A DNA stretch of 64,000 nt, taken from the NCBI GenBank assembly GCA_020630095.1, contig JAHDCD010000001.1, positions 5,698-69,697 on the forward strand, read 5' to 3'. A program made the position numbers and the translations under genes. The DNA is from Rickettsiales bacterium. Its GTDB lineage: Bacteria > Pseudomonadota > Alphaproteobacteria > Rickettsiales > UBA8987. Positions within the stretch are counted from its first letter, which is position 1; each line of letters starts with the position of its first letter. The notes under the pieces were generated by a model. The model was not told the DNA's origin. It made no database searches and saw only the letters and a list, made by a program, of their open reading frames with translations. Shown piece by piece: positions 2,100-45,265 of the stretch.

Positions 2100-2813
2100 T
2101 TAAGCTACAGTCCAAGCTAGAACGCCTTTTCTATCCATTGCGCCATCCTTAATGATTTCTGCCCACATTTTATTTTCATAATTTGCATTAGCTTCTGGGA
2201 AGCCTTTTGGTTGTTTAATGGCTTCTGAAAATGCCATTGGTGGGCTATGTGCAATTGCATTGCCTATATTGGGGTTGTTGTGTTTTACAGTTACTCCGTG
2301 GAAAGTTGCTTCTGGCCATACTTCCTGTAATGCTCTTATATTTAATCCGCTTCCTACAGTTACCCAAACTTCTTTAGGGGGTTCTGATAATGGTAAGTTG
2401 GATGCTATATCAATTATACTTTGCCTAGTATCAGAATTCTCCATTCCTTCAGGAAGGACATGAGTTGAGCTATCGTTGTGATATTTTAAATTTGCTTCAC
2501 CTACTAGGGTGGTTGCATTCATTTCTGAACCTTTCCAAATTAGTTCAGCGCCTAATTCTTGGCATTCTTCTAAAATTTGAGACATTTTATCAGTTTCTGA
2601 TAGGTAGATTATAGGTTTTTTATCCAAAGCATTGGCTGCTAAAGTTAAGGCTAGTGGACCTCCGCCTAGTGATGTTGTGCAAAAAACTATATTATCTTCT
2701 GGTATTTTTTGTAGGGCGTATTCTAAAGCTATCCTTTTAATACCGCCTTCCACCTCATGTCCCATTACAATGGTAAGTCCCTCTTTTTCTGTGATATTTA
2801 TATTAAACGACAC
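2100..2813 (-). CDS. Divergent, short ACC-deaminase/D-cysteine-desulfhydrase-family (fold-type II PLP) like protein, copy 1
   Basis: EGGIKRIALEY resembles GGNKxRKLE. VTVGSGLNIRAL and HGVTVK resemble the DcyD glycine loop and following strand. The C-terminal YENKMW...VLAWT resembles VYTGKA...ILFIHTGG. It is only 237 aa, so the assignment is tentative. Confidence 0.4.
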   Translation of the reverse strand: MSFNINITEKEGLTIVMGHEVEGGIKRIALEYALQKIPEDNIVFCTTSLGGGPLALTLAANALDKKPIIYLSETDKMSQILEECQELGAELIWKGSEMNATTLVGEANLKYHNDSSTHVLPEGMENSDTRQSIIDIASNLPLSEPPKEVWVTVGSGLNIRALQEVWPEATFHGVTVKHNNPNIGNAIAHSPPMAFSEAIKQPKGFPEANANYENKMWAEIIKDGAMDRKGVLAWTVA

Positions 2814-4160: not shown

Positions 4161-4874
4161 TTAAGCTACAGTCCAAGCTAGAACGCCTTTTCTATCCATT
4201 GCGCCATCCTTAATGATTTCTGCCCACATTTTATTTTCATAATTTGCATTAGCTTCTGGGAAGCCTTTTGGTTGTTTAATGGCTTCTGAAAATGCCATTG
4301 GTGGGCTATGTGCAATTGCATTGCCTATATTGGGGTTGTTGTGTTTTACAGTTACTCCGTGGAAAGTTGCTTCTGGCCATACTTCCTGTAATGCTCTTAT
4401 ATTTAATCCGCTTCCTACAGTTACCCAAACTTCTTTAGGGGGTTCTGATAATGGTAAGTTGGATGCTATATCAATTATACTTTGCCTAGTATCAGAATTC
4501 TCCATTCCTTCAGGAAGGACATGAGTTGAGCTATCGTTGTGATATTTTAAATTTGCTTCACCTACTAGGGTGGTTGCATTCATTTCTGAACCTTTCCAAA
4601 TTAGTTCAGCGCCTAATTCTTGGCATTCTTCTAAAATTTGAGACATTTTATCAGTTTCTGATAGGTAGATTATAGGTTTTTTATCCAAAGCATTGGCTGC
4701 TAAAGTTAAGGCTAGTGGACCTCCGCCTAGTGATGTTGTGCAAAAAACTATATTATCTTCTGGTATTTTTTGTAGGGCGTATTCTAAAGCTATCCTTTTA
4801 ATACCGCCTTCCACCTCATGTCCCATTACAATGGTAAGTCCCTCTTTTTCTGTGATATTTATATTAAACGACAC
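4161..4874 (-). CDS. ACC-deaminase/DcyD-family-like protein, copy 2 (identical to 2100..2813)
   Basis: Translation identical to copy 1. Confidence 0.4.
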   Translation of the reverse strand: MSFNINITEKEGLTIVMGHEVEGGIKRIALEYALQKIPEDNIVFCTTSLGGGPLALTLAANALDKKPIIYLSETDKMSQILEECQELGAELIWKGSEMNATTLVGEANLKYHNDSSTHVLPEGMENSDTRQSIIDIASNLPLSEPPKEVWVTVGSGLNIRALQEVWPEATFHGVTVKHNNPNIGNAIAHSPPMAFSEAIKQPKGFPEANANYENKMWAEIIKDGAMDRKGVLAWTVA

Positions 4875-6468: not shown

Positions 6469-6498
6469 GTTTTTTGCCTAGGTGTAGGTTGTTATAAT

Positions 6499-6550
6499 AT
6501 ACGAGTATTCTTATTTATACTTATATAAGCATAAATAAGAATACTCGTAT
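6499..6550. promoter_or_regulatory. 52-bp palindrome (25 of 26 pairs) in the divergent arsR-like / fadL-like intergenic region; candidate operator
   Basis: ATACGAGTATTCTTATTTATACTTAT|ATAAGCATAAATAAGAATACTCGTAT. The only mismatch is the 6519/6530 pair. It lies 31 bp from the regulator start. Confidence 0.55.
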
Positions 6551-6689
6551 AGATGTGTAATGTTTAATTGTTAATATTTAAAGGTTTTATTTTGTTTTAG
6601 AGGCTGTCTTGTATAAAAATATCTTGCATTAGTAGTTAAGAGTATTAGCAATTAGTAATTACATTTTACTAATTCAACTTTACTCATTT

Positions 6690-7880
6690 ATGAAAAATTT
6701 CACTAAACTATCATATGTAATGGCCGGTGTAAGTGCTCTAGCTATAACATCTATTTCAAGTGACGCTAATGCTGCTGCATTCCAATTAAAGGAGCAATCG
6801 GCTGCGGGTCAAGGTAACTCATTTGCAGGTGCAACCGCTAGTCCAGAGGGGTTATCTGGTATATTTTTTAACCCTGCGGCAATTGCGGATATTGAAGGCA
6901 GAAAGGCTGAGATTGGCTTAAGCTTTATCGCTCCAGATTCTAAATGGACTGAGGCTGGTGGTACTTCAGGTAATGCGGGTGATGACGCCTTTGTACCATA
7001 TGGTTATGGTGTTATGGATTTATCGCCTAGCACTAAGCTTGGTATTGGTGTTAATGCGCCATTTGGTCTTAAAACAGAATATGGTGTTACAGAAACACCT
7101 GCGCCATTAGCTACAGTTTCTGAGCTTACTACTGTTGCTTTATCAATTGTTGCTTCAACTAGAGTTAATGAAAAGTTAGCTATTGGTGGTGGTATTATTT
7201 TACAACATGCGGAAGCTGAACTTTCTACCAACGCTTTAGTTAATGAAGGTGATGATGATCTAGGTTTAGGTTTTGTATTGGGTTTCCAGTATGAAGCTAC
7301 GGATGCTTTAACTTTAGGTTTTAACTATCGTTCACAAATTAATCATAACTTAGAAGGTGATGCAACATTGGCGGGAACATTTTTTTCTGATTTAGCGGTG
7401 GATGCATCTTTACCGGATATTGTTAGCTTTGGTGCGGCTTACCAAGTTTCAGATACTGTTGAATTAGTTGCGGATGCAACATGGACTAACTGGTCTGATT
7501 TTGAATCAATTGATTTAGAATTTGGTACTCCTGGCTTTCCATTAGGTACTGGTTTAAGTATTCCTCAGAACTATGAAAACTCATGGTTTGTAGGTCTGGG
7601 TGCTAATGTGGATGTATCTGATAACTTAACTGTTAGAACTGGTTTTGCTTATGACCAAACTCCAACTACAGATGCAGACAGAACTTTCCGTGTGCCAGAT
7701 GAGGACAGAACTTGGGCTTCTTTAGGTGCTACTTATGTTCTTGATAATGGTATCGAGATTTCTGGTGGTTATTCTCATATCTTCGTGCCAGATAATGCTG
7801 TTGTTAACGAAGGTGGTTTATCCGCTGAATTTGAAGCTGATGTTGATATTTTATCTTTATCAGTTGGCTTTAACTTCTAA
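6690..7880 (+). CDS. FadL/OmpP1/TodX-family outer-membrane transport protein
   Basis: Signal peptide ending ANA; N-terminal AAFQLKEQSAAGQGNSFAGATA...FFNPAAIA; C-terminal beta-strand ending in F (LSLSVGFNF). Confidence 0.8.
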   Translation: MKNFTKLSYVMAGVSALAITSISSDANAAAFQLKEQSAAGQGNSFAGATASPEGLSGIFFNPAAIADIEGRKAEIGLSFIAPDSKWTEAGGTSGNAGDDAFVPYGYGVMDLSPSTKLGIGVNAPFGLKTEYGVTETPAPLATVSELTTVALSIVASTRVNEKLAIGGGIILQHAEAELSTNALVNEGDDDLGLGFVLGFQYEATDALTLGFNYRSQINHNLEGDATLAGTFFSDLAVDASLPDIVSFGAAYQVSDTVELVADATWTNWSDFESIDLEFGTPGFPLGTGLSIPQNYENSWFVGLGANVDVSDNLTVRTGFAYDQTPTTDADRTFRVPDEDRTWASLGATYVLDNGIEISGGYSHIFVPDNAVVNEGGLSAEFEADVDILSLSVGFNF

Positions 7881-23670: not shown

Positions 23671-24498
23671 ATGAAAAATATATCTAACGCATTGAAAAAC
23701 CATATTTCACAAGAAGTTACTACGCTGGCTTCATGTATTTTATTAAAGTTGCGGGATGGAGCTTTAATTGGCTTCACTTCTTTAGATCAAGATATTGAAT
23801 TTGAAGGAGTTTTGTATGAATCTTGTATGGGGGTAGACATTTTAGGGGCGAATACTCAGAATGATTTAAGTAATGATGATTTAGATTTTACCAGCGTGAT
23901 AGATTCGCCGTTAATGGACGAGAAAGAGTTGCGCGCGGGAAGGTTTGACCATGCCGAAGTTAGTGCGTTTTTAGTTAATTATGAAGATTTAACGCAAGGT
24001 AGGTTAATGCTTCGTTTTGGTTATTTAGGTGAGATAAAACATTCTAATGGTCGCTTTGAGGGGAAAGTTCATGGTTTAGGTAAAAAGCTTGATAAAGTTC
24101 AGGGTGATTTATATTCTAAAATTTGTCGTGCGAAGTTTGGCGATAGTAAATGCGGTTTTGATACTTCTAGCGTTACATTTACTGGTGTAGTAAGCGCGGT
24201 GGAATCAAATAAAGAGTTTACCGATAGCACACGTGCGGAGGATTCAGGGCATTTTGATAATGGTGTGATTAAGTTTATATCCGGCGCTAATGCAGGGCAA
24301 AGTATTGAAATTAAAAAGAGTTTTGCTGAGCGTGTTACGTTAATGATGGCTTTGCCGTATGATATTGCGGTAGGAGATAGTTACGAGATTACGCAAGGTT
24401 GCGATAGAGTATTTAGTACTTGCGTTGAGCGTTATAATAATGCGATTAATTTTCGTGCGGAACCGCATATTCCTGGAACATCTGCTATTGTAGGCTAA
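23671..24498 (+). CDS. GTA/phage tail hub protein homologue (RcGTA g13-like; DUF2163 / TIGR02218 with BR0599 C-terminal domain)
   Basis: TTLASCILLKLRDGALIGFTSLDQDIEFEGVLYES at the N-terminus. The C-terminus GVIKFISGANAGQSIEIK...GDSYEITQGCDRVFSTCVERYNNAINFRAEPHIPG matches the BR0599 pattern. Confidence 0.75.
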   Translation: MKNISNALKNHISQEVTTLASCILLKLRDGALIGFTSLDQDIEFEGVLYESCMGVDILGANTQNDLSNDDLDFTSVIDSPLMDEKELRAGRFDHAEVSAFLVNYEDLTQGRLMLRFGYLGEIKHSNGRFEGKVHGLGKKLDKVQGDLYSKICRAKFGDSKCGFDTSSVTFTGVVSAVESNKEFTDSTRAEDSGHFDNGVIKFISGANAGQSIEIKKSFAERVTLMMALPYDIAVGDSYEITQGCDRVFSTCVERYNNAINFRAEPHIPGTSAIVG

Positions 24499-26359
24499 GT
24501 AGAGTTTCTGCGATTGAGTCTGCATCCAAACCGGCTTCTTGCAATTGTTCTGCTTGAGTTGCGTGGTCTTGGTATTTATCCGGTAATATTAAGCTTCTAA
24601 AGCGTTTATCAAGTAGTGCGTCAGAGTCTGTTAATAATTTCAGTACAGATGAGCCGAAGCCGCCAGATGAACCTTCTTCAATTGTTACTATATTCTTAGC
24701 TTTGCTAATGGATTCTAATATTAGCTCTTCATCGATTGGTTTAGCGAAGCGGGCATCTATAACTGTGCATCTAACACCTTTCCATTTTAAACGTTCAGCG
24801 GCTTCAAGTACTTCACTTAGCATTGTGCCTATAGATATTATAACATTTTCTTCACCCTCTTTGTGGGCAACATATCCTTTGCCAAGTTCAATATTAGGCA
24901 CTTCAGTATCGGTAATAATTGCATTACCACGTGGATAGCGAATGGCTATTGGGCTTTCGTTATATTCAGCTGAAAATTTAACGATTTCCTCTAATTCAAC
25001 CGCGTTGGACGGGCAAGCGATAACCATGTTAGGTAGGCACGAAAGGTACGCAATATCGAAGCTACCTGCATGGGTTGCGCCATCTGCGCCTACTAAGCCG
25101 GCTCTGTCCATTGCGAATCTAACGGGTAGATTTTGGATTGCGCAATCGTGGATTAATTGGTCGTATGCGCGCTGTAGGAATGTGGAATAAATTGTAACGA
25201 ATGGTTTGAGGCCTTCAGTTGCCAAACCTGCGGCGAAGGTTACAGCATGTTGTTCGGCAATTCCTACGTCAAAATATTTATCTGGATAAGATTCTTGGAA
25301 TTTATCTAGCCCTGTTCCGCTTGGCATTGCGGCGGTTATGGCGATAATTTTATCGTCCTTTTCTGCTAGTTCAGTTAATGTTTTGCTGAAAATGGCTGTG
25401 TTGGATGGTGTGCCGCCTTTTGATTTACGTTGTACTTTAGTTTCAACATCGAACCCGCTAGTTGCATGGTATTTTTCAGATGAGAAATCAGGTGAATTAA
25501 AGCCTCTACCTTTTTCAGTAACTATATGAATTAAAACAGGTTTATTATCTATATTATCGCGAACGTTAGAAAGTACTTTAACTAGATGGTCGGTATTATG
25601 ACCATCTAGCACGCCGATATAATGGAATCCCATTCCTTCGAAAAAGTTTGTACGATTGCGCGAAAAGGGCATTAATGATTTCCAAAAACTTTCGGTGCGT
25701 TTTGCGGCGCGGCTGAAATAATCAGGGAATTTATTAAGCACGCGTTTGGTAATATCGCGAAGGCTGTAATATGGTTTTGAGCTTACTAGGTTTGCTAAGT
25801 AACGGCTCATTGCGCCTACTGCGGGCGCGATTGACATATCGTTATCGTTCAGAATAACGATTAATTTTGAATCATATGCACCGGCATTATTAAGCGCCTC
25901 GTATGCCATGCCAGCGGACATTGCGCCATCGCCAATTACGGCGATAACTTCGTTTTTCTTATTTAGCTTATCGCGGGCAATAGCCATGCCGTGCCCTGCT
26001 GAAATAGATGTAGATGAATGACCTGCGCCGAACGGGTCATATTCAGATTCGGAGCGTTTAGTGAAGCCAGATAATCCGCCTTTTTTGCGGATGGTTTGCA
26101 TGTCATCCTTACGGCCAGTTAAAATTTTATGTGGGTATGCTTGGTGGCCAACATCCCAAATTAGTCTGTCTTCTGGAGTGTTGAAAACGTAATGAATAGC
26201 GACAGTAAGTTCAACTACGCCTAAGCCAGCGCCAAGGTGACCACCGGTTTGTGAAACGTTGTTTATCACCTCTTGGCGAAGTTCATCTGAAAATTGAGGT
26301 AGCTGATTAACATCAAGCTTCTTTAAATCAGAAGGGTATTTGATTTTATCTAATAACAC
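24485..26359 (-). CDS. dxs: 1-deoxy-D-xylulose-5-phosphate synthase
   Basis: GGHLGAGLGVVELTVAIHYVF, ThDP motif GDGAMSAGMAYEALNNAG, IAEQHAVTFAAGLA. GTG start. Confidence 0.95.
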   Translation of the reverse strand: MLLDKIKYPSDLKKLDVNQLPQFSDELRQEVINNVSQTGGHLGAGLGVVELTVAIHYVFNTPEDRLIWDVGHQAYPHKILTGRKDDMQTIRKKGGLSGFTKRSESEYDPFGAGHSSTSISAGHGMAIARDKLNKKNEVIAVIGDGAMSAGMAYEALNNAGAYDSKLIVILNDNDMSIAPAVGAMSRYLANLVSSKPYYSLRDITKRVLNKFPDYFSRAAKRTESFWKSLMPFSRNRTNFFEGMGFHYIGVLDGHNTDHLVKVLSNVRDNIDNKPVLIHIVTEKGRGFNSPDFSSEKYHATSGFDVETKVQRKSKGGTPSNTAIFSKTLTELAEKDDKIIAITAAMPSGTGLDKFQESYPDKYFDVGIAEQHAVTFAAGLATEGLKPFVTIYSTFLQRAYDQLIHDCAIQNLPVRFAMDRAGLVGADGATHAGSFDIAYLSCLPNMVIACPSNAVELEEIVKFSAEYNESPIAIRYPRGNAIITDTEVPNIELGKGYVAHKEGEENVIISIGTMLSEVLEAAERLKWKGVRCTVIDARFAKPIDEELILESISKAKNIVTIEEGSSGGFGSSVLKLLTDSDALLDKRFRSLILPDKYQDHATQAEQLQEAGLDADSIAETLLSLQ

Positions 26360-26432: not shown

Positions 26433-26496
26433 GAGTTAATATATCTATATACCTATATACCAATATTGGTATATAGGTATATAGATATATTAACTC
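26433..26496. promoter_or_regulatory. Perfect 64-bp palindrome between dxs and the divergent arsR-like gene; candidate operator
   Basis: GAGTTAATATATCTATATACCTATATACCAAT|ATTGGTATATAGGTATATAGATATATTAACTC, with all 32 pairs complementary. Confidence 0.55.
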
Positions 26497-42037: not shown

Positions 42038-43138
42038 ATGTCTTTTAAGTGTGGAATAGTTGGATTGCCAAATGTTGGTAAATCTACTTTGTTTAATGCG
42101 TTAACTGCGACTTCAAATGCGGATGCGGGTAATTTTCCGTTTTGCACTATTGAGCCTAATACCGGTAAAGTTGCGGTACCAGATGAGCGCTTATATAAAT
42201 TGGCGGATATTGCTACTTCAAAAGAAATCATTCCTAATCAATTAGAGTTTGTTGATATTGCGGGTTTAGTTGCAGGTGCATCTAAAGGTGAAGGTTTAGG
42301 TAATAAATTCTTAAGTCATATTCGGGAAGTGGATATTATTGCCCATGTATTACGTTGTTTTGAGAATGATGATATTACTCATGTTGAAGGACGAGTTAAT
42401 CCGTTAGACGATTTTGAGATTATTCAAACCGAACTTATATTATCTGATTTAGAATCGCTTGAGCGTAGATTGCCAGCATTACAAAAGCGTGCGGTGCAAG
42501 ATAAAGAACTTAAAGCGCAAGCGGAAGTTATGGAAAAGGCGTTGGCTGTTTTACAAGAAGGCAAGCCGTTAACAACATTAGAATTAGATTCAGATGATGA
42601 GCGTAAACTACTGAAGCAGATGCATACTTTAACATCTAAGCCGTTCATGTTTATATGTAATGTTGGCGAAGATGAGGTAGTTGATGGTAATGAGCATGTT
42701 GAGGCTGTTAAGAAATATGCGACTTCAGTTGGTGCGGCGGTATCGTTAATATCTGCACAGATAGAAGAAGAGATAGCTAACTTAGGCGATGAAGGGGAGA
42801 AGGCTGAATTTCTAGAGTCATTAGGCTTGGAAGAAACTGGTTTAGCTAAGATTATTAAGGCAGGTTATGAGCTACTTGGTTTAACTACATTCTATACCGT
42901 TGGCCCTAAGGAGGCGAGAGCATGGATTGTTAGAACGGGTGGTACTGCGCCAAATGCGGCTGGTGCTATTCATACAGATTTTGAGCGTGGCTTTATTAAG
43001 GCAGAAACTATTGCGTTTGCAGATTACGTTGAATTTAAAGGTGAGCAGGGTGCTAAAGAAAATGGTAAGTTTCGTATGGAAGGTAAGGATTATACTGTAC
43101 AAGATGGTGACGTTTTCCACTTTAAATTTAATGTCTAA
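42038..43138 (+). CDS. ychF: Ribosome-binding ATPase YchF
   Basis: GIVGLPNVGKSTLFNALT; DIAGLVAGASKGEGLGN; C-terminal TGS-like ...GKDYTVQDGDVFHFKFNV. Confidence 0.95.
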   Translation: MSFKCGIVGLPNVGKSTLFNALTATSNADAGNFPFCTIEPNTGKVAVPDERLYKLADIATSKEIIPNQLEFVDIAGLVAGASKGEGLGNKFLSHIREVDIIAHVLRCFENDDITHVEGRVNPLDDFEIIQTELILSDLESLERRLPALQKRAVQDKELKAQAEVMEKALAVLQEGKPLTTLELDSDDERKLLKQMHTLTSKPFMFICNVGEDEVVDGNEHVEAVKKYATSVGAAVSLISAQIEEEIANLGDEGEKAEFLESLGLEETGLAKIIKAGYELLGLTTFYTVGPKEARAWIVRTGGTAPNAAGAIHTDFERGFIKAETIAFADYVEFKGEQGAKENGKFRMEGKDYTVQDGDVFHFKFNV

Positions 43139-44184
43139 GCACTTTTTCTAATAATATTATCTAACTCTATTAAGTCTTCTATTGAGTTGGCCTTGTGGTT
43201 TAGGTGCTTTTCTAGGGATTTTTCAACGAAAGTAAAAATTTGGGTGAAGGTTAGTTCATCGTTTAAGTATTTTTCAACGGCGATTTCATTTGCAGCATTC
43301 AAAACGGCGCAAGCGGAACTTCCTGCTTCTATAGCATCGTAAGCCATTTGAATTGATGGGAATTTGTTTAAATCTGGCTCGTAGAAGTTTAGTGATTTTT
43401 GAAAGGCAAGGTCAAGGCTTGGCATAGGATAATTATTAACGCCTAGAACGTTGGCAATCGGAATGCGCATATCTGGTGCGTATAAGCCACTTATGGACAT
43501 GCCGTCAGCATATTCAACAATGGAATGGATAACAGATTCAGGGTGAATAAGAACTTTAGGTGTAATGCCAAATAGATAATGCGTTTCGATTATCTCTAGC
43601 GCCTTATTAAAGCAAGTTGCGCTATCTACAGAGATTTTAGCGCCCATGTGCCAGTTAGGGTGTTTTATGGCGCGCTCTTTAGGGAAGTCTATTAATTTAG
43701 GTTCATTAAAGAATGGGCCGCCGGAAGCGGTGATAGTTAAGTTTTTTACTTCGCGGGTAGTATCTAGTGTTTGATAGATTGAGTTATGTTCGGAATCTAT
43801 TGGTAGGATTTCGCAATTATGTTTTTTAGCTTCATTTAAGAAATAATTACCTGCAACTACTATACTTTCCTTGTTGGCTAGGCCTAATTGTTTTGATGTT
43901 TTTAGTGCTTGTAAAGCTGGCTTTAAACCTGCAATTCCTGTTATGGCGCAGATGGTTATATCTATTTCTTGATTAAGAAGTTCGGTTAAGGCTTGCTCGC
44001 CATCTTCAGAAATTAGAACAGTATTTTTACAATTAAGTTCTTCTGCTTGGCTTTGTAACTTGGTTTTATTTTTATTGGCAACTAAGCCAATAACTTCGAA
44101 AGCTTTGGACTGAGATTTAATTACTTTTATTGTATTCTCTCCAATTGTGCCCGTAGAGCCTAATATTACAACTTTCTTTACCAC
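43135..44184 (-). CDS. dxr: 1-deoxy-D-xylulose-5-phosphate reductoisomerase (shorter than typical, 349 aa)
   Basis: ILGSTGTIGENTIKVI; LANKESIVVAG; PIDSEHNSIYQ; HPNWHMGAKISVDSAT. Confidence 0.88.
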   Translation of the reverse strand: MVKKVVILGSTGTIGENTIKVIKSQSKAFEVIGLVANKNKTKLQSQAEELNCKNTVLISEDGEQALTELLNQEIDITICAITGIAGLKPALQALKTSKQLGLANKESIVVAGNYFLNEAKKHNCEILPIDSEHNSIYQTLDTTREVKNLTITASGGPFFNEPKLIDFPKERAIKHPNWHMGAKISVDSATCFNKALEIIETHYLFGITPKVLIHPESVIHSIVEYADGMSISGLYAPDMRIPIANVLGVNNYPMPSLDLAFQKSLNFYEPDLNKFPSIQMAYDAIEAGSSACAVLNAANEIAVEKYLNDELTFTQIFTFVEKSLEKHLNHKANSIEDLIELDNIIRKSA

Positions 44185-44253
44185 GAGTGTATTACTAACA
44201 ATTAGTGAATCTAAAGCAAGATTTATAGGTTATAAAGAGAGGTGTTTATATTG

Positions 44254-44301
44254 GTAGTAAATCTGGATATCTGGAAATTTCCAGATATCCAGATTTACTA
44301 C
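44254..44301. promoter_or_regulatory. Perfect 48-bp palindrome between dxr and the divergent arsR-like gene; it abuts a TTGACA box; candidate operator
   Basis: GTAGTAAATCTGGATATCTGGAAA|TTTCCAGATATCCAGATTTACTAC, followed immediately by TTGACA (44302-44307). Confidence 0.55.
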
Positions 44302-44332
44302 TTGACATGGTATGCTTTTGGAAGGTATCTGA

Positions 44333-44623
44333 ATGAATATGAATAAGATAGTTAGCAATGTTGATGAGCTGGACTTTTTGGAACAGAAATTTAAAGGGCT
44401 TGCTTCTAGGCATAGAGTTAAAATATTGATATATCTTAGTTCTGGTGAAAAATCATTGCCAGAAATTATTGAGCATCTAAAGCCTTTGAATTCAAAAACA
44501 ATATTTGAGCATGTTTCTAAGTTAAAGAAATATGGCATTATTAAAAATAGGCGAACTTCTATAAATACAATATATAAGATAAGTGATGATACCGCCTTAT
44601 CTTTCTTGGAAGGGTATAAATAG
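44333..44623 (+). CDS. ArsR/SmtB-family winged-helix regulator (paralogue 3)
   Basis: LASRHRVKILIYLSSGEKSLPEIIEHLKPLNSKTIFEHVSKLKKYGII; its stop directly abuts the bioD start. Confidence 0.65.
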   Translation: MNMNKIVSNVDELDFLEQKFKGLASRHRVKILIYLSSGEKSLPEIIEHLKPLNSKTIFEHVSKLKKYGIIKNRRTSINTIYKISDDTALSFLEGYK

Positions 44624-45265
44624 ATGCAAAAGAGAATTTTTATAACTTCAGTGGGTACAGAGATTGGTAAAACGTATGTTACCTGCTTAGAGGTTGCGCA
44701 TTTGTTGGAGCAAGGAATTGATGCTATTGCGGTTAAGCCGGTTATATCTGGATATGAAGAATATGAACACACTGATTTAACTGAACTTTTAAAATCCCAA
44801 AATCCCAAAATCCCAAAATCTCAAGGTTTGAAGTATGTTGATGATATAAGTTTATTCAAATTTAAAGAGCCTGTTTCGCCAGATATTGCTGCAAAAATGG
44901 AAAATGCGGAAGCTGCGAATGTAAAAGATATTAAGCGATATATTGATGATTTGGATAATGATGTAGTTTTAATTGAAGGTGTTGGTGGTTTATGTGTACC
45001 TTTGAATGATGATGAAACTACTCTTGATTTGATTAAGGCGTTAAATTGTGATGAAATTTGGCTAGTTAGTTCAAATTATTTGGGTGCGCTAAGTCATACT
45101 ATTTCTGCGGTTAAGAATCTGCCTGAAATTAGTAAAATTATAATTTCACAGAATGTGAGTGATATATCTGTAGATTTAGGAAGCTTCGTAGATTCGCTTA
45201 AAAATCATATAAATAAGCCTGTTTTTACCGTTAAAAGAGGCGGTTATTCTATTGACAAAGCATAA
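44624..45265 (+). CDS. bioD: Dethiobiotin synthetase
   Basis: P-loop ITSVGTEIGKTYVT; VKPVISG; IEGVGGLCVPL. Confidence 0.8.
   Translation: MQKRIFITSVGTEIGKTYVTCLEVAHLLEQGIDAIAVKPVISGYEEYEHTDLTELLKSQNPKIPKSQGLKYVDDISLFKFKEPVSPDIAAKMENAEAANVKDIKRYIDDLDNDVVLIEGVGGLCVPLNDDETTLDLIKALNCDEIWLVSSNYLGALSHTISAVKNLPEISKIIISQNVSDISVDLGSFVDSLKNHINKPVFTVKRGGYSIDKA

What the first reader, a model, noticed from the sequence alone, without database searches (positions are those of the whole stretch)
44185..44332. Perfect 48-bp palindrome between dxr and a third ArsR-like regulator (followed directly by bioD)
Positions 44254-44301 form a perfect 48-bp palindrome that directly abuts a TTGACA hexamer facing the regulator gene. 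It is 70 bp from the dxr start on the other strand. The regulator's stop abuts the bioD start, so the two are probably co-transcribed. Together with the dxs locus, both MEP entry enzymes in this window are paired with paralogous wHTH proteins and private long palindromes. That is unlikely to happen by chance if the family has few members.
Basis: partly seen in the sequence, partly recalled or inferred. Interest (0 to 1): 0.6.

Follow-up and report, generated by a model that had tools for sequence, protein, structure and literature searches.

The report
Giant palindromic operator of mini-ArsR repressor
The perfect 48-bp palindrome between dxr and a small ArsR-type gene is most likely that protein's own oversized DNA-binding site; it is one of about nine such regulator-plus-palindrome units in this small genome, and near-identical copies of this site also sit in front of dapA/hemJ and lpxC.

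Summary
Positions 44254-44301 are a perfect 48-bp palindrome; the longest arm in 100 shuffles was 12, against 24 here. It abuts a TTGACA hexamer, 70 bp from the dxr start and 31 bp from a 96-aa ORF whose stop touches the bioD start.

The ORF is an ArsR/SmtB-fold protein (Pfam HTH_5; AF2 model matches CzrA, TM 0.81). It has no cysteines and lacks the alpha5 metal ligands.

The genome (1.6 Mb) holds 10 ArsR-like genes, against 1-5 in relatives of the same family. Nine have their own long palindrome upstream. The palindromes are not private: this one recurs between dapA and hemJ, upstream of a bPH-lpxC operon, and in frame inside a GTA tail gene.

I read it as the operator of the adjacent autorepressor. 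It is built from two overlapping TGGAWA-N8-TWTCCA dyads offset by 8 bp.

The MEP-specific reading is only partly supported. The regulators sit next to many unrelated genes, and ispDF, ispG and ispH have no palindrome. However, dxs/dxr, dapA/dapB and lpxC/lpxB all carry such sites, which hints at control of the entry steps of envelope-precursor pathways.

This is a new variant of a known kind. No binding or expression data exist.

The parts
44254..44301 (.). Perfect 48-bp palindrome, the proposed operator of the adjacent mini-ArsR. Layout: GTAGTAA, then two 8-bp units ATCTGGA(T/A), a centre A|T, then the mirror image.
44264..44283 (.). Dyad A, TGGATA-N8-TTTCCA (6-8-6 half-site pair). The single-dyad operators of paralogues C9_111467 and C10_41474 use the same geometry.
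   Evidence: 2 matches in the window against 0.04 expected
44272..44291 (.). Dyad B, TGGAAA-N8-TATCCA. It overlaps dyad A with an 8-bp offset.
44302..44307 (+). TTGACA, candidate -35 of the regulator-bioD promoter, abutting the palindrome. Paralogue C9_111467 has the same palindrome-then-CTTGAC layout.
   Evidence: inferred, since the strict sigma-70 scan found no full promoter
44326..44331 (+). TATCTG, weak candidate -10, 18 bp after TTGACA. It would put the transcript start near the second ATG (44339), giving a leaderless mRNA. The alternative is the GGAAGG Shine-Dalgarno-like box at 44320-44325 serving the ATG at 44333.
   Evidence: read from the sequence; inference only
44333..44623 (+). 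96-aa mini-ArsR/SmtB-fold regulator ('P3'). It has no Cys and no alpha5 metal ligands. Alternative start at 44339.
44624..45265 (+). bioD (dethiobiotin synthase). Its start codon directly follows the regulator's stop, so the two are probably co-transcribed.
43135..44184 (-). dxr (DXP reductoisomerase, 349 aa), divergent from the regulator. Here it is monocistronic, whereas relatives have cdsA-dxr-rseP.
44191..44219 (-). Candidate dxr promoter on the minus strand: TTGCTT (44219-44214), 16-nt spacer, TGt-TAGTAAT (44197-44191), then 6 nt to the GTG. This places the palindrome at about -69 to -116 relative to dxr.
   Evidence: read from the sequence; inference, and the strict scan found none
26433..26496 (.). 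Sister unit: perfect 64-bp palindrome between dxs (24485-26359, minus) and paralogue P2 (26538-26828, plus). A second copy lies at C9:128363, between an LbH gene and an MMPL transporter gene.
6498..6551 (.). Sister unit: 54-bp palindrome (26 of 27 pairs) between paralogue P1 (6181-6468, minus) and fadL (6690-7880, plus). A second copy lies at C9:121100, after ruvB and before a 2Fe-2S ferredoxin gene.

Best explanation
The 48-bp palindrome is the operator of the 96-aa ArsR/SmtB-fold protein encoded 31 bp downstream of it.

Proposed binding mode. The protein, presumably a homodimer, binds TGGAWA-N8-TWTCCA dyads. The palindrome holds two such dyads, overlapping with an 8-bp offset, plus outer GTAGTAAA/TTTACTAC arms. 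It could therefore hold two dimers.

Proposed effect. The site abuts the -35-like TTGACA of the regulator-bioD transcription unit, so occupancy should repress that unit (negative autoregulation). The same intergenic region carries the dxr promoter, so dxr is probably modulated too, but the sign and strength are unknown.

Wider picture. The protein has none of the known ArsR-family sensor sites, so it is either a constitutive or homeostatic repressor or it senses something new. Near-identical copies of the site between dapA and hemJ and upstream of bPH-lpxC make this a small regulon. The unit is one of about nine paralogous regulator-plus-palindrome units that expanded in this lineage.

Shown: the sequence features, the fold, the census and the site copies. 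Inferred: binding, stoichiometry, repression and the effect on dxr.
For: 1. Fold and family. PF01022 scores above its cut-off. The PDB profile search hits HlyU, CzrA, SqrR and NolR at E about 1e-16. The AF2 model has pLDDT 88 and its best Foldseek matches are CzrA, SmtB, SqrR and NolR, with TM up to 0.81.

2. Gene-palindrome linkage across the genome. Nine of 10 ArsR-like genes have their own long palindrome just upstream. Six of the 55 palindromes with arms of at least 15 nt lie within 150 bp of these 10 genes, against 0.21 expected (P = 7e-8).

3. Protein and site co-vary. The four members of the P3 subfamily (51-64% identical) all have TGGAAA/TGTAAA-type half-sites, and three of them show the 6-8-6 spacing. 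The P1 subfamily has unrelated sites.

4. Position. The palindrome abuts TTGACA here, and the same arrangement occurs upstream of paralogue C9_111467.

5. Extra copies lie in divergent promoter regions: dapA<>hemJ, bPH-lpxC, and this locus.

6. Precedent. ArsR/SmtB repressors bind inverted repeats at or near the -35 or the transcription start, sometimes two repeats, and are sometimes divergently transcribed from their target (PMC8790569).
Against: - There is no experimental binding or expression data.
- The strict sigma-70 scan finds no complete promoter in the spacer.
- If dxr is leaderless, the palindrome lies at -69 to -116. That is not a classical repressor position.
- A perfect 48-bp symmetry is more than a dimer needs. 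The same is true of the copy-specific symmetric flanks and the compensatory changes between copies.
- Four paralogues share the TGGAAA half-site, so which of them binds this site is not established.
- One copy lies inside a coding region.
- NCBIfam's ArsR/SmtB subfamily model scores below its cut-off (38.8 against 55).
Confidence: 0.7

Rival explanations
1. The palindrome is mainly a structure-forming or self-propagating DNA element: a cruciform or hairpin module of the REP/MITE type, or a template-switch 'self-symmetrising' palindrome. It is copied between loci, and the ArsR-like genes are merely associated with it or have adopted it secondarily. Its effect on neighbouring genes would come through DNA structure or supercoiling, not sequence-specific repression.
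For: - Copies at distant loci are homologous over 40-56 bp, including non-contact positions. They differ by gain or loss of an 8-bp unit and an 11-bp duplication, which looks like copy-and-slip, not convergent site evolution.
- Differences between copies are partly compensatory: TCTGGA/TCCAGA becomes TCTAGA/TCTAGA at the lpxC copy, and there are two symmetric pairs in the C9_57550 family.
- Individual copies carry their own symmetric flanks: AATGA..TCATT at dapA/hemJ, and GT/AC, CA/TG and TA/TA in the C10_109880 family.
- The hairpin potential is strong.
- The genome has other REP-like palindrome families.
Against: - There are only 2-5 copies per family, not tens or hundreds.
- Each family is tied to one particular paralogue's own promoter region, and related proteins have related half-sites.
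- The in-gene copy adds no length compared with seven orthologues, so it is not an RPE-type insertion.
- No transposase or nuclease is linked to the copies.
Confidence: 0.12
2. This is a dedicated MEP-pathway switch. The dxs-linked and dxr-linked paralogues would sense isoprenoid intermediates and co-ordinate the two entry enzymes.
For: - Both dxs and dxr are divergently paired with paralogous regulators and palindromes.
- Another family's operator lies between serB and miaA, and MiaA uses DMAPP.
- dxr has been moved out of the cdsA-dxr-rseP cluster found in relatives, to sit beside the regulator.
Against: - The two regulators are only 31% identical and have unrelated operators.
- The dxr-linked operator also sits at dapA/hemJ and bPH-lpxC, and the dxs-linked one at an MMPL transporter gene.
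- ispDF, ispG and ispH have no palindrome.
- Seven more units flank unrelated genes.
- No ligand site is recognisable.
Confidence: 0.1
3. The element works at the RNA level, as a 24-bp perfect hairpin in a long dxr 5' leader. Transcription would start to the right of the palindrome, and the hairpin would act as a processing, stability or attenuation signal.
For: - The predicted stem is very stable.
- A weak TACCAT -10-like box exists on the minus strand at 44309-44314 (read).
- Compensatory changes between copies fit selection on a stem.
Against: - No Rfam family matches beyond spurious sub-threshold miRNA hits, and there is no terminator-like T-run.
- Genes diverge from the site at three loci, so no single transcript orientation is shared.
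- The link to ArsR paralogues would be left unexplained.
Confidence: 0.05

Closest known systems
Autoregulated ArsR/SmtB-family repressors with 12-2-12 inverted-repeat operators (SmtB, CzrA, ZiaR, AzuR)
   Same: - Same winged-helix fold and family.
- The inverted-repeat site lies at or against the -35 of the regulated promoter.
- The regulator may be divergent from its target, and one or two repeats may be bound cooperatively (PMC8790569).
   Different: - The operator is a perfect 24-0-24 palindrome of 48 bp, built from 8-bp tandem units, not an imperfect 12-2-12 repeat.
- The protein has no Cys and no alpha5 His/Asp ligand set. CzrA H86 aligns to T87, and the protein ends before the H97/H100 equivalents.
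- The targets are biosynthetic genes, not metal efflux or sequestration genes.
Non-metal ArsR-family members HlyU, NolR, PagR and SqrR/BigR
   Same: - They are the best sequence and fold matches.
- They are small proteins of about 100 aa. NolR and PagR have no known metal site.
- They have multi-site regulons outside metal homeostasis, and NolR uses spaced short half-sites (from my own knowledge).
   Different: - The Cys pairs of SqrR, BigR and HlyU are absent.
- No orthologue exists. The best non-self match among 1.84 billion representatives has 30-38% identity.
- The operators are far longer and perfectly symmetric.
Fur, DtxR and IdeR-type operators with overlapping dyads bound by two dimers
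   Same: Two overlapping dyads, offset by less than one helical turn, lie within one longer palindrome. This suggests two dimers on different faces of the DNA. The comparison comes from my own knowledge and is an analogy only.
   Different: The protein family is unrelated. The stoichiometry here is untested.
REP elements, REPtrons and Rickettsia palindromic elements
   Same: - Dispersed near-identical palindromes occur in the genome.
- Two paralogues (C1_71829 and C10_109880) are bracketed by copies of their palindrome, as a RAYT gene is by REPs.
- One copy lies in frame inside a gene.
   Different: - Copy number is only 2-5, and no Y1 transposase is present.
- The in-gene copy adds no length.
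- Each family is tied to one DNA-binding paralogue.

Membership tests
ArsR/SmtB family (Pfam HTH_5, PF01022) | Sequence match above the curated threshold | tested here: met
   PF01022 scores 25.1 bits against a cut-off of 22. However, the NCBIfam subfamily model NF033788 scores 38.8 against 55, below its cut-off.
ArsR/SmtB family (Pfam HTH_5, PF01022) | alpha1-alpha2-alpha3-alphaR-beta1-beta2-alpha5 winged-helix fold | tested here: met
   AF2 model with pLDDT 88.3: helices at 3-23, 26-35, 42-48 and 54-66, strands at 70-74 and 79-83, helix at 86-95. Foldseek matches CzrA 1r1u with TM 0.81 and rmsd 1.4 A.
ArsR/SmtB family (Pfam HTH_5, PF01022) | Homodimer through alpha1 and alpha5 | not tested
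   Only a monomer was modelled.
ArsR/SmtB family (Pfam HTH_5, PF01022) | Inverted-repeat operator (typically an imperfect 12-2-12) at or overlapping the regulated promoter | tested here: inconclusive
   An inverted repeat abuts a -35-like hexamer. Its form is 24-0-24 and perfect, readable as two overlapping 6-8-6 dyads. Binding was not tested.
ArsR/SmtB metal or persulfide sensors (alpha3, alpha3N, alpha5 sites; SqrR/BigR Cys pair) | Ligand residues: the CXC motif in alpha3, N-terminal Cys, the alpha5 D/H-x-H...H-x-x-H set, or a Cys pair | tested here: not met
   The protein has no Cys. In the alignment to CzrA, H86 aligns to T87, and the chain ends at residue 96, before the H97/H100 equivalents. 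The SqrR Cys position is Ile.
REP / MITE / RPE-type mobile palindromic elements | High copy number dispersed in the genome | tested here: not met
   There are 4 copies of this element and 2-5 copies for the sister families.
REP / MITE / RPE-type mobile palindromic elements | In-frame insertion that adds residues compared with orthologues | tested here: not met
   The copy in the GTA tail gene lies in a variable loop that is shorter than, not longer than, the loop in 7 orthologues.
Intrinsic (bidirectional) terminator | G+C-rich stem followed by a T-run, between convergent genes | tested here: not met
   The scan found no terminator-like sites, and the flanking genes diverge.

The most novel reading that the evidence does not exclude
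A lineage-specific family of sensor-less mini-ArsR proteins, with their copy-pasted and self-symmetrising giant palindromes, forms a distributed control layer on the entry steps of cell-envelope precursor pathways: dxs and dxr for isoprenoid carrier lipid, dapA and dapB for meso-DAP, lpxC and lpxB for lipid A, plus mrdA, fadL, an MMPL transporter gene and bioD. The input would not be a small ligand. It would be DNA topology, through cruciform extrusion of the perfect AT-centred palindromes between divergent promoters, or growth-rate dilution of the autorepressors. New targets would be recruited by copying the operator module to a new promoter.
Probability: 0.12. Interest if true: 0.75.

Novelty: new variant of a known kind. 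Interest (0 to 1): 0.45.

Why it matters
Transcriptional control of the MEP pathway entry enzymes in bacteria is poorly understood. I found no paper that links ArsR-type regulators to dxs or dxr: the search returned only incidental co-mentions.

This reduced genome, probably of a host-associated alphaproteobacterium, seems to have expanded one minimal repressor scaffold to about nine specificities. It has placed their unusually long, perfect operators in front of committed steps of envelope-precursor synthesis.

If confirmed, three things would follow:
- a compact set of orthogonal repressor/operator pairs, useful for specificity studies and synthetic biology;
- a natural example of regulon growth by copying whole operator modules;
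- a testable handle on how a small genome co-ordinates isoprenoid, DAP and lipid A supply.

If only the conservative reading holds, this is an ordinary autorepressor with an oversized site.

Tried and rejected
1. Phylogenetic footprinting was not possible.
- The regulator has no homologue other than its own-genome paralogues, either in the 5.8-billion-protein word search or at E <= 1e-10 in an exhaustive HMMER scan of 1.84 billion representatives.
- A genome-contig scan with the subfamily alignment found nothing.
- Exact-pattern scans for the operator core gave only chance hits in unrelated contexts.

2. Relatives in the same family carry 1-5 ArsR-like genes, but none of the 11 loci I inspected has a comparably long perfect palindrome.

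3. The strict promoter and terminator scan of the spacer found nothing. All promoter assignments here are my own weak-consensus readings.

4. Rfam gave only sub-threshold miRNA-hairpin artefacts at the palindromes.

5. The idea of an RPE-like in-frame insertion in the GTA tail gene was rejected after alignment with 7 orthologues.

7. Literature searches found no described ArsR control of dxs or dxr and no description of this operator design.

Full report
**Observation**

Positions 44254-44301 are a perfect spacer-less palindrome of 48 bp: GTAGTAAATCTGGATATCTGGAAA|TTTCCAGATATCCAGATTTACTAC.
- It is followed at once by TTGACA (44302-44307).
- It lies 70 bp from the GTG start of dxr (44184, minus strand).
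- It lies 31 bp from the ATG of a 96-aa ORF (44333-44623). The TAG stop of that ORF is directly followed by the ATG of bioD (44624).
- In 100 dinucleotide-preserving shuffles of the window, the longest perfect arm averaged 8.2 nt and never exceeded 12, against 24 here.
- As single-stranded DNA the element folds at -22.5 kcal/mol, z = -10.9.
- The window holds three palindromes of this class (6498-6551, 26433-26496 and 44254-44301). Each lies beside a 95-96-aa ORF.

**The genes**

- Dxr passes TIGR00243 and BioD passes TIGR00347. The dxs gene at 24485-26359 passes TIGR00204.
- The 96-aa protein ('P3') passes Pfam HTH_5 (25.1 against 22 bits). It is below NCBIfam's ArsR/SmtB subfamily cut-off (38.8 against 55).
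- A profile of the ten paralogues hits HlyU, CzrA, SqrR, CadC, NolR, PagR and SmtB in the PDB at E from 1e-17 to 1e-12.
- An AlphaFold2 model (pLDDT 88, pTM 0.78) shows the alpha1-alpha2-alpha3-alphaR-beta-beta-alpha5 layout. Its best Foldseek matches are CzrA, SmtB, SqrR, SrnR and NolR, with TM up to 0.81.
- P3 has no cysteine. In the alignment to CzrA, the alpha5 ligand H86 is T87, and the chain ends before H97 and H100. The SqrR cysteine position is isoleucine. By every known ArsR-family sensing motif, it has no sensor.

**Census**

- An HMM of the three window proteins finds 10 ArsR-like ORFs in the 1.6-Mb genome. A Pfam-based six-frame search finds 9, against 1-5 (typically 1-2) in 17 genomes of the same family.
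- Nine of the ten have their own long palindrome immediately upstream. The tenth (C9:62471) looks like a conventional ArsR and has none.
- Of the 55 palindromes in the genome with arms of at least 15 nt, six lie within 150 bp of these ten genes, against 0.21 expected (P = 7e-8).
- P3 belongs to a four-member subfamily (51-64% identity). This subfamily exists nowhere else in 1.84 billion representative proteins at E <= 1e-10, and the next best hits are 30-38% identical.
- The expansion is therefore specific to this lineage.

**The palindromes are not private**

Each family has further copies. The P3 element recurs at three places.
- (i) C10:33369-33408, between dapA and a UPF0093 (HemJ-type) gene. 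This copy keeps the same GTAGTAAA...TTTACTAC ends and the CCAAT flank, has one 8-bp unit fewer on one arm, and carries an 11-bp duplication.
- (ii) C10:99475-99522, upstream of a bPH-domain gene whose stop overlaps the lpxC start. This copy has 5 mismatches in 38.
- (iii) C7:138125-138172, in frame inside a GTA-type tail gene.

Copies of the sister families:
- The dxs-linked palindrome recurs between an LbH gene and an MMPL/sterol-sensing transporter gene.
- The fadL-linked palindrome recurs after ruvB, before a 2Fe-2S ferredoxin gene.
- Other families sit at serB<>miaA, at dapB<>CCA-adding enzyme, after lpxB, before grpE and after mrdA.
- Two paralogues are bracketed by their own palindrome on both sides.

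**Operator architecture**

Two P3-subfamily paralogues have single dyads of the 6-8-6 form:
- C9_111467: TGGAAA-TATCGATA-TTTCCA
- C10_41474: TGGAAA-TATGGGTT-TTTCCG

The fourth member, C5_144794, uses TGTAAA-type half-sites in a 19-6-19 palindrome and does not match the exact 6-8-6 pattern.

The P3 palindrome contains exactly two 6-8-6 dyads, TGGATA-N8-TTTCCA (44264-44283) and TGGAAA-N8-TATCCA (44272-44291).
- They overlap with an 8-bp offset.
- The pattern occurs twice in the window against 0.04 expected, and four times in the genome against 0.7 expected. All four are at ArsR-linked sites.
- The dapA/hemJ copy keeps only one dyad.

I infer that one dimer binds each dyad, so the full site would hold two dimers. 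This is a model, not a result.

**Promoter geometry (inferred)**

TTGACA abuts the palindrome. Paralogue C9_111467 has the same palindrome-then-CTTGAC layout, followed by TATAGT and 8 nt to its ATG, with no Shine-Dalgarno sequence.

By analogy, P3 may be transcribed from TTGACA-N18-TATCTG as a leaderless mRNA starting at the second ATG (44339). Alternatively, GGAAGG (44320-44325) may serve as a Shine-Dalgarno box for the ATG at 44333. Either way, the site lies on or against the -35, which is the classical position for ArsR-family autorepression (PMC8790569).

For dxr, the best minus-strand candidate is TTGCTT-N16-(TGt)TAGTAAT-N6-GTG. This puts the palindrome at about -69 to -116. Control of dxr is therefore plausible from the shared divergent spacer, but its sign is open. 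The strict scan calls no promoter here.

**More symmetry than a repressor needs**

- Copies at distant loci are homologous over 40-56 bp and differ by slippage of the 8-bp unit. They look copied, not convergently evolved.
- Some differences are symmetric. The outer TCTGGA/TCCAGA becomes TCTAGA/TCTAGA at the lpxC copy. Two paired changes occur in the C9_57550 family.
- Individual copies have their own symmetric flanks: AATGA...TCATT at dapA/hemJ, and GT/AC, CA/TG and TA/TA in the C10_109880 family.

This keeps alive a structural or self-propagating reading (cruciform or template-switch symmetrisation), which I rate as the main rival. Against it:
- copy numbers are 2-5;
- each family is tied to one paralogue;
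- the in-gene copy adds no length compared with seven orthologues.

**Is the dxs/dxr pairing meaningful?**

It is not a MEP-specific switch.
- P2 and P3 are about 31% identical and have unrelated operators.
- ispDF, ispG, ispH and also bioB have no palindrome upstream.
- Other units flank obg, tyrS, a bolA-like gene, mutL, rph, a peptide-binding protein gene and a kinase/regulator pair.

It is probably not random either.
- The roughly 35 genes flanking the roughly 22 sites include dxs and dxr, dapA and dapB, lpxC and lpxB, mrdA, fadL, an MMPL transporter gene, bioD and miaA.
- With about 1500 genes and, by my rough guess, about 300 consecutive-enzyme pairs, I expect about 0.16 such pairs among 35 genes. 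Two are seen. This is a post-hoc estimate of mine, not a tool result.
- In relatives, dxr sits in the usual cdsA-dxr-rseP string without an ArsR gene. Here dxr has been detached and now stands alone beside the regulator.

**Verdict**

The element is most likely the operator of the adjacent sensor-less mini-ArsR (confidence 0.7), which autoregulates the regulator-bioD unit and probably touches dxr. It also marks dapA/hemJ and bPH-lpxC.

It is a new variant of a known kind. An earlier agent reached the same general view for the dxs unit. The genome-wide census, the extra operator copies and the overlapping-dyad model are new here.

Nothing has been tested experimentally.

Noticed in passing
G000 C10:109889-109918, C10:110221-110250, C5:40259-40288, C9:138508-138537, C9:150446-150475: A 30-bp perfect palindrome, CATTCTAACATTCTTAAGAATGTTAGAATG, occurs five times. 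Two copies bracket ArsR paralogue C10_109880. The others lie 12-13 bp after the stops of lpxB and mrdA, and just upstream of grpE. The copies have different but individually complementary flanks (GT/AC, CA/TG, TA/TA), which is a stem-like covariation pattern.
   Followed up: partly
G000 C7:138125-138172 (L063): An operator-like stretch, AAATCTGGAAATTTCCAGATATACAGATATCCAGA, lies in frame (GNLEISRYTDIQ) in a variable loop of a 1199-aa GTA-type tail protein. It adds no length compared with 7 orthologues.
   Followed up: yes
G000 C9:21904-21939, C7:10379-10414, C7:154249-154284, C5:55746-55781: A different double palindrome, TTTCGTTTTCCGGAAAACGTTTTCCGGAAAACGAAA, occurs four times. The copies lie next to mscL, an M48 (HtpX-like) protease gene, a second large membrane transporter gene and a hexapeptide acetyltransferase gene. 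No ArsR gene is adjacent, so this is a candidate envelope-stress regulon of an unidentified regulator.
   Followed up: partly
window 44791-44824: An 8-nt tandem repeat (AAAATCCC x 4.2) lies inside bioD. Gain or loss of one unit would shift the frame. The operator just upstream is also built from 8-bp units.
   Followed up: partly
window 43135-44184: Dxr here is 349 aa, and its first ~60 residues fail to align in 11 of the 17 relatives' matches, whose open frames are 383-454 aa. The gene stands alone between ychF and the ArsR gene, instead of in the cdsA-dxr-rseP string seen in relatives.
   Followed up: partly
window 2100-2813 and 4161-4874: Two 237-aa ORFs, 2061 bp apart on the minus strand, are 100% identical in protein sequence. 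This is a recent tandem duplication or an assembly repeat.
   Followed up: partly
G000 C13:4385-4438 (just upstream of the window), C7:147756-147808, C2:144854-144894, C11:61820-61858: This palindrome family has the form TATAGTAAATTCTAATTT...AAATTAGAATTTACTATA. It shares the TAGTAAAT motif with the outer arms of the dxr-linked operator. The relationship is unknown.
   Followed up: no
G000 C10:99523-100206 (L061 1624-2307): About 690 bp with no convincing ORF and no Rfam match lies between the lpxC-side operator copy and a DHHA1-like gene that starts with GTG. It may be a decayed gene or an unannotated RNA.
   Followed up: partly
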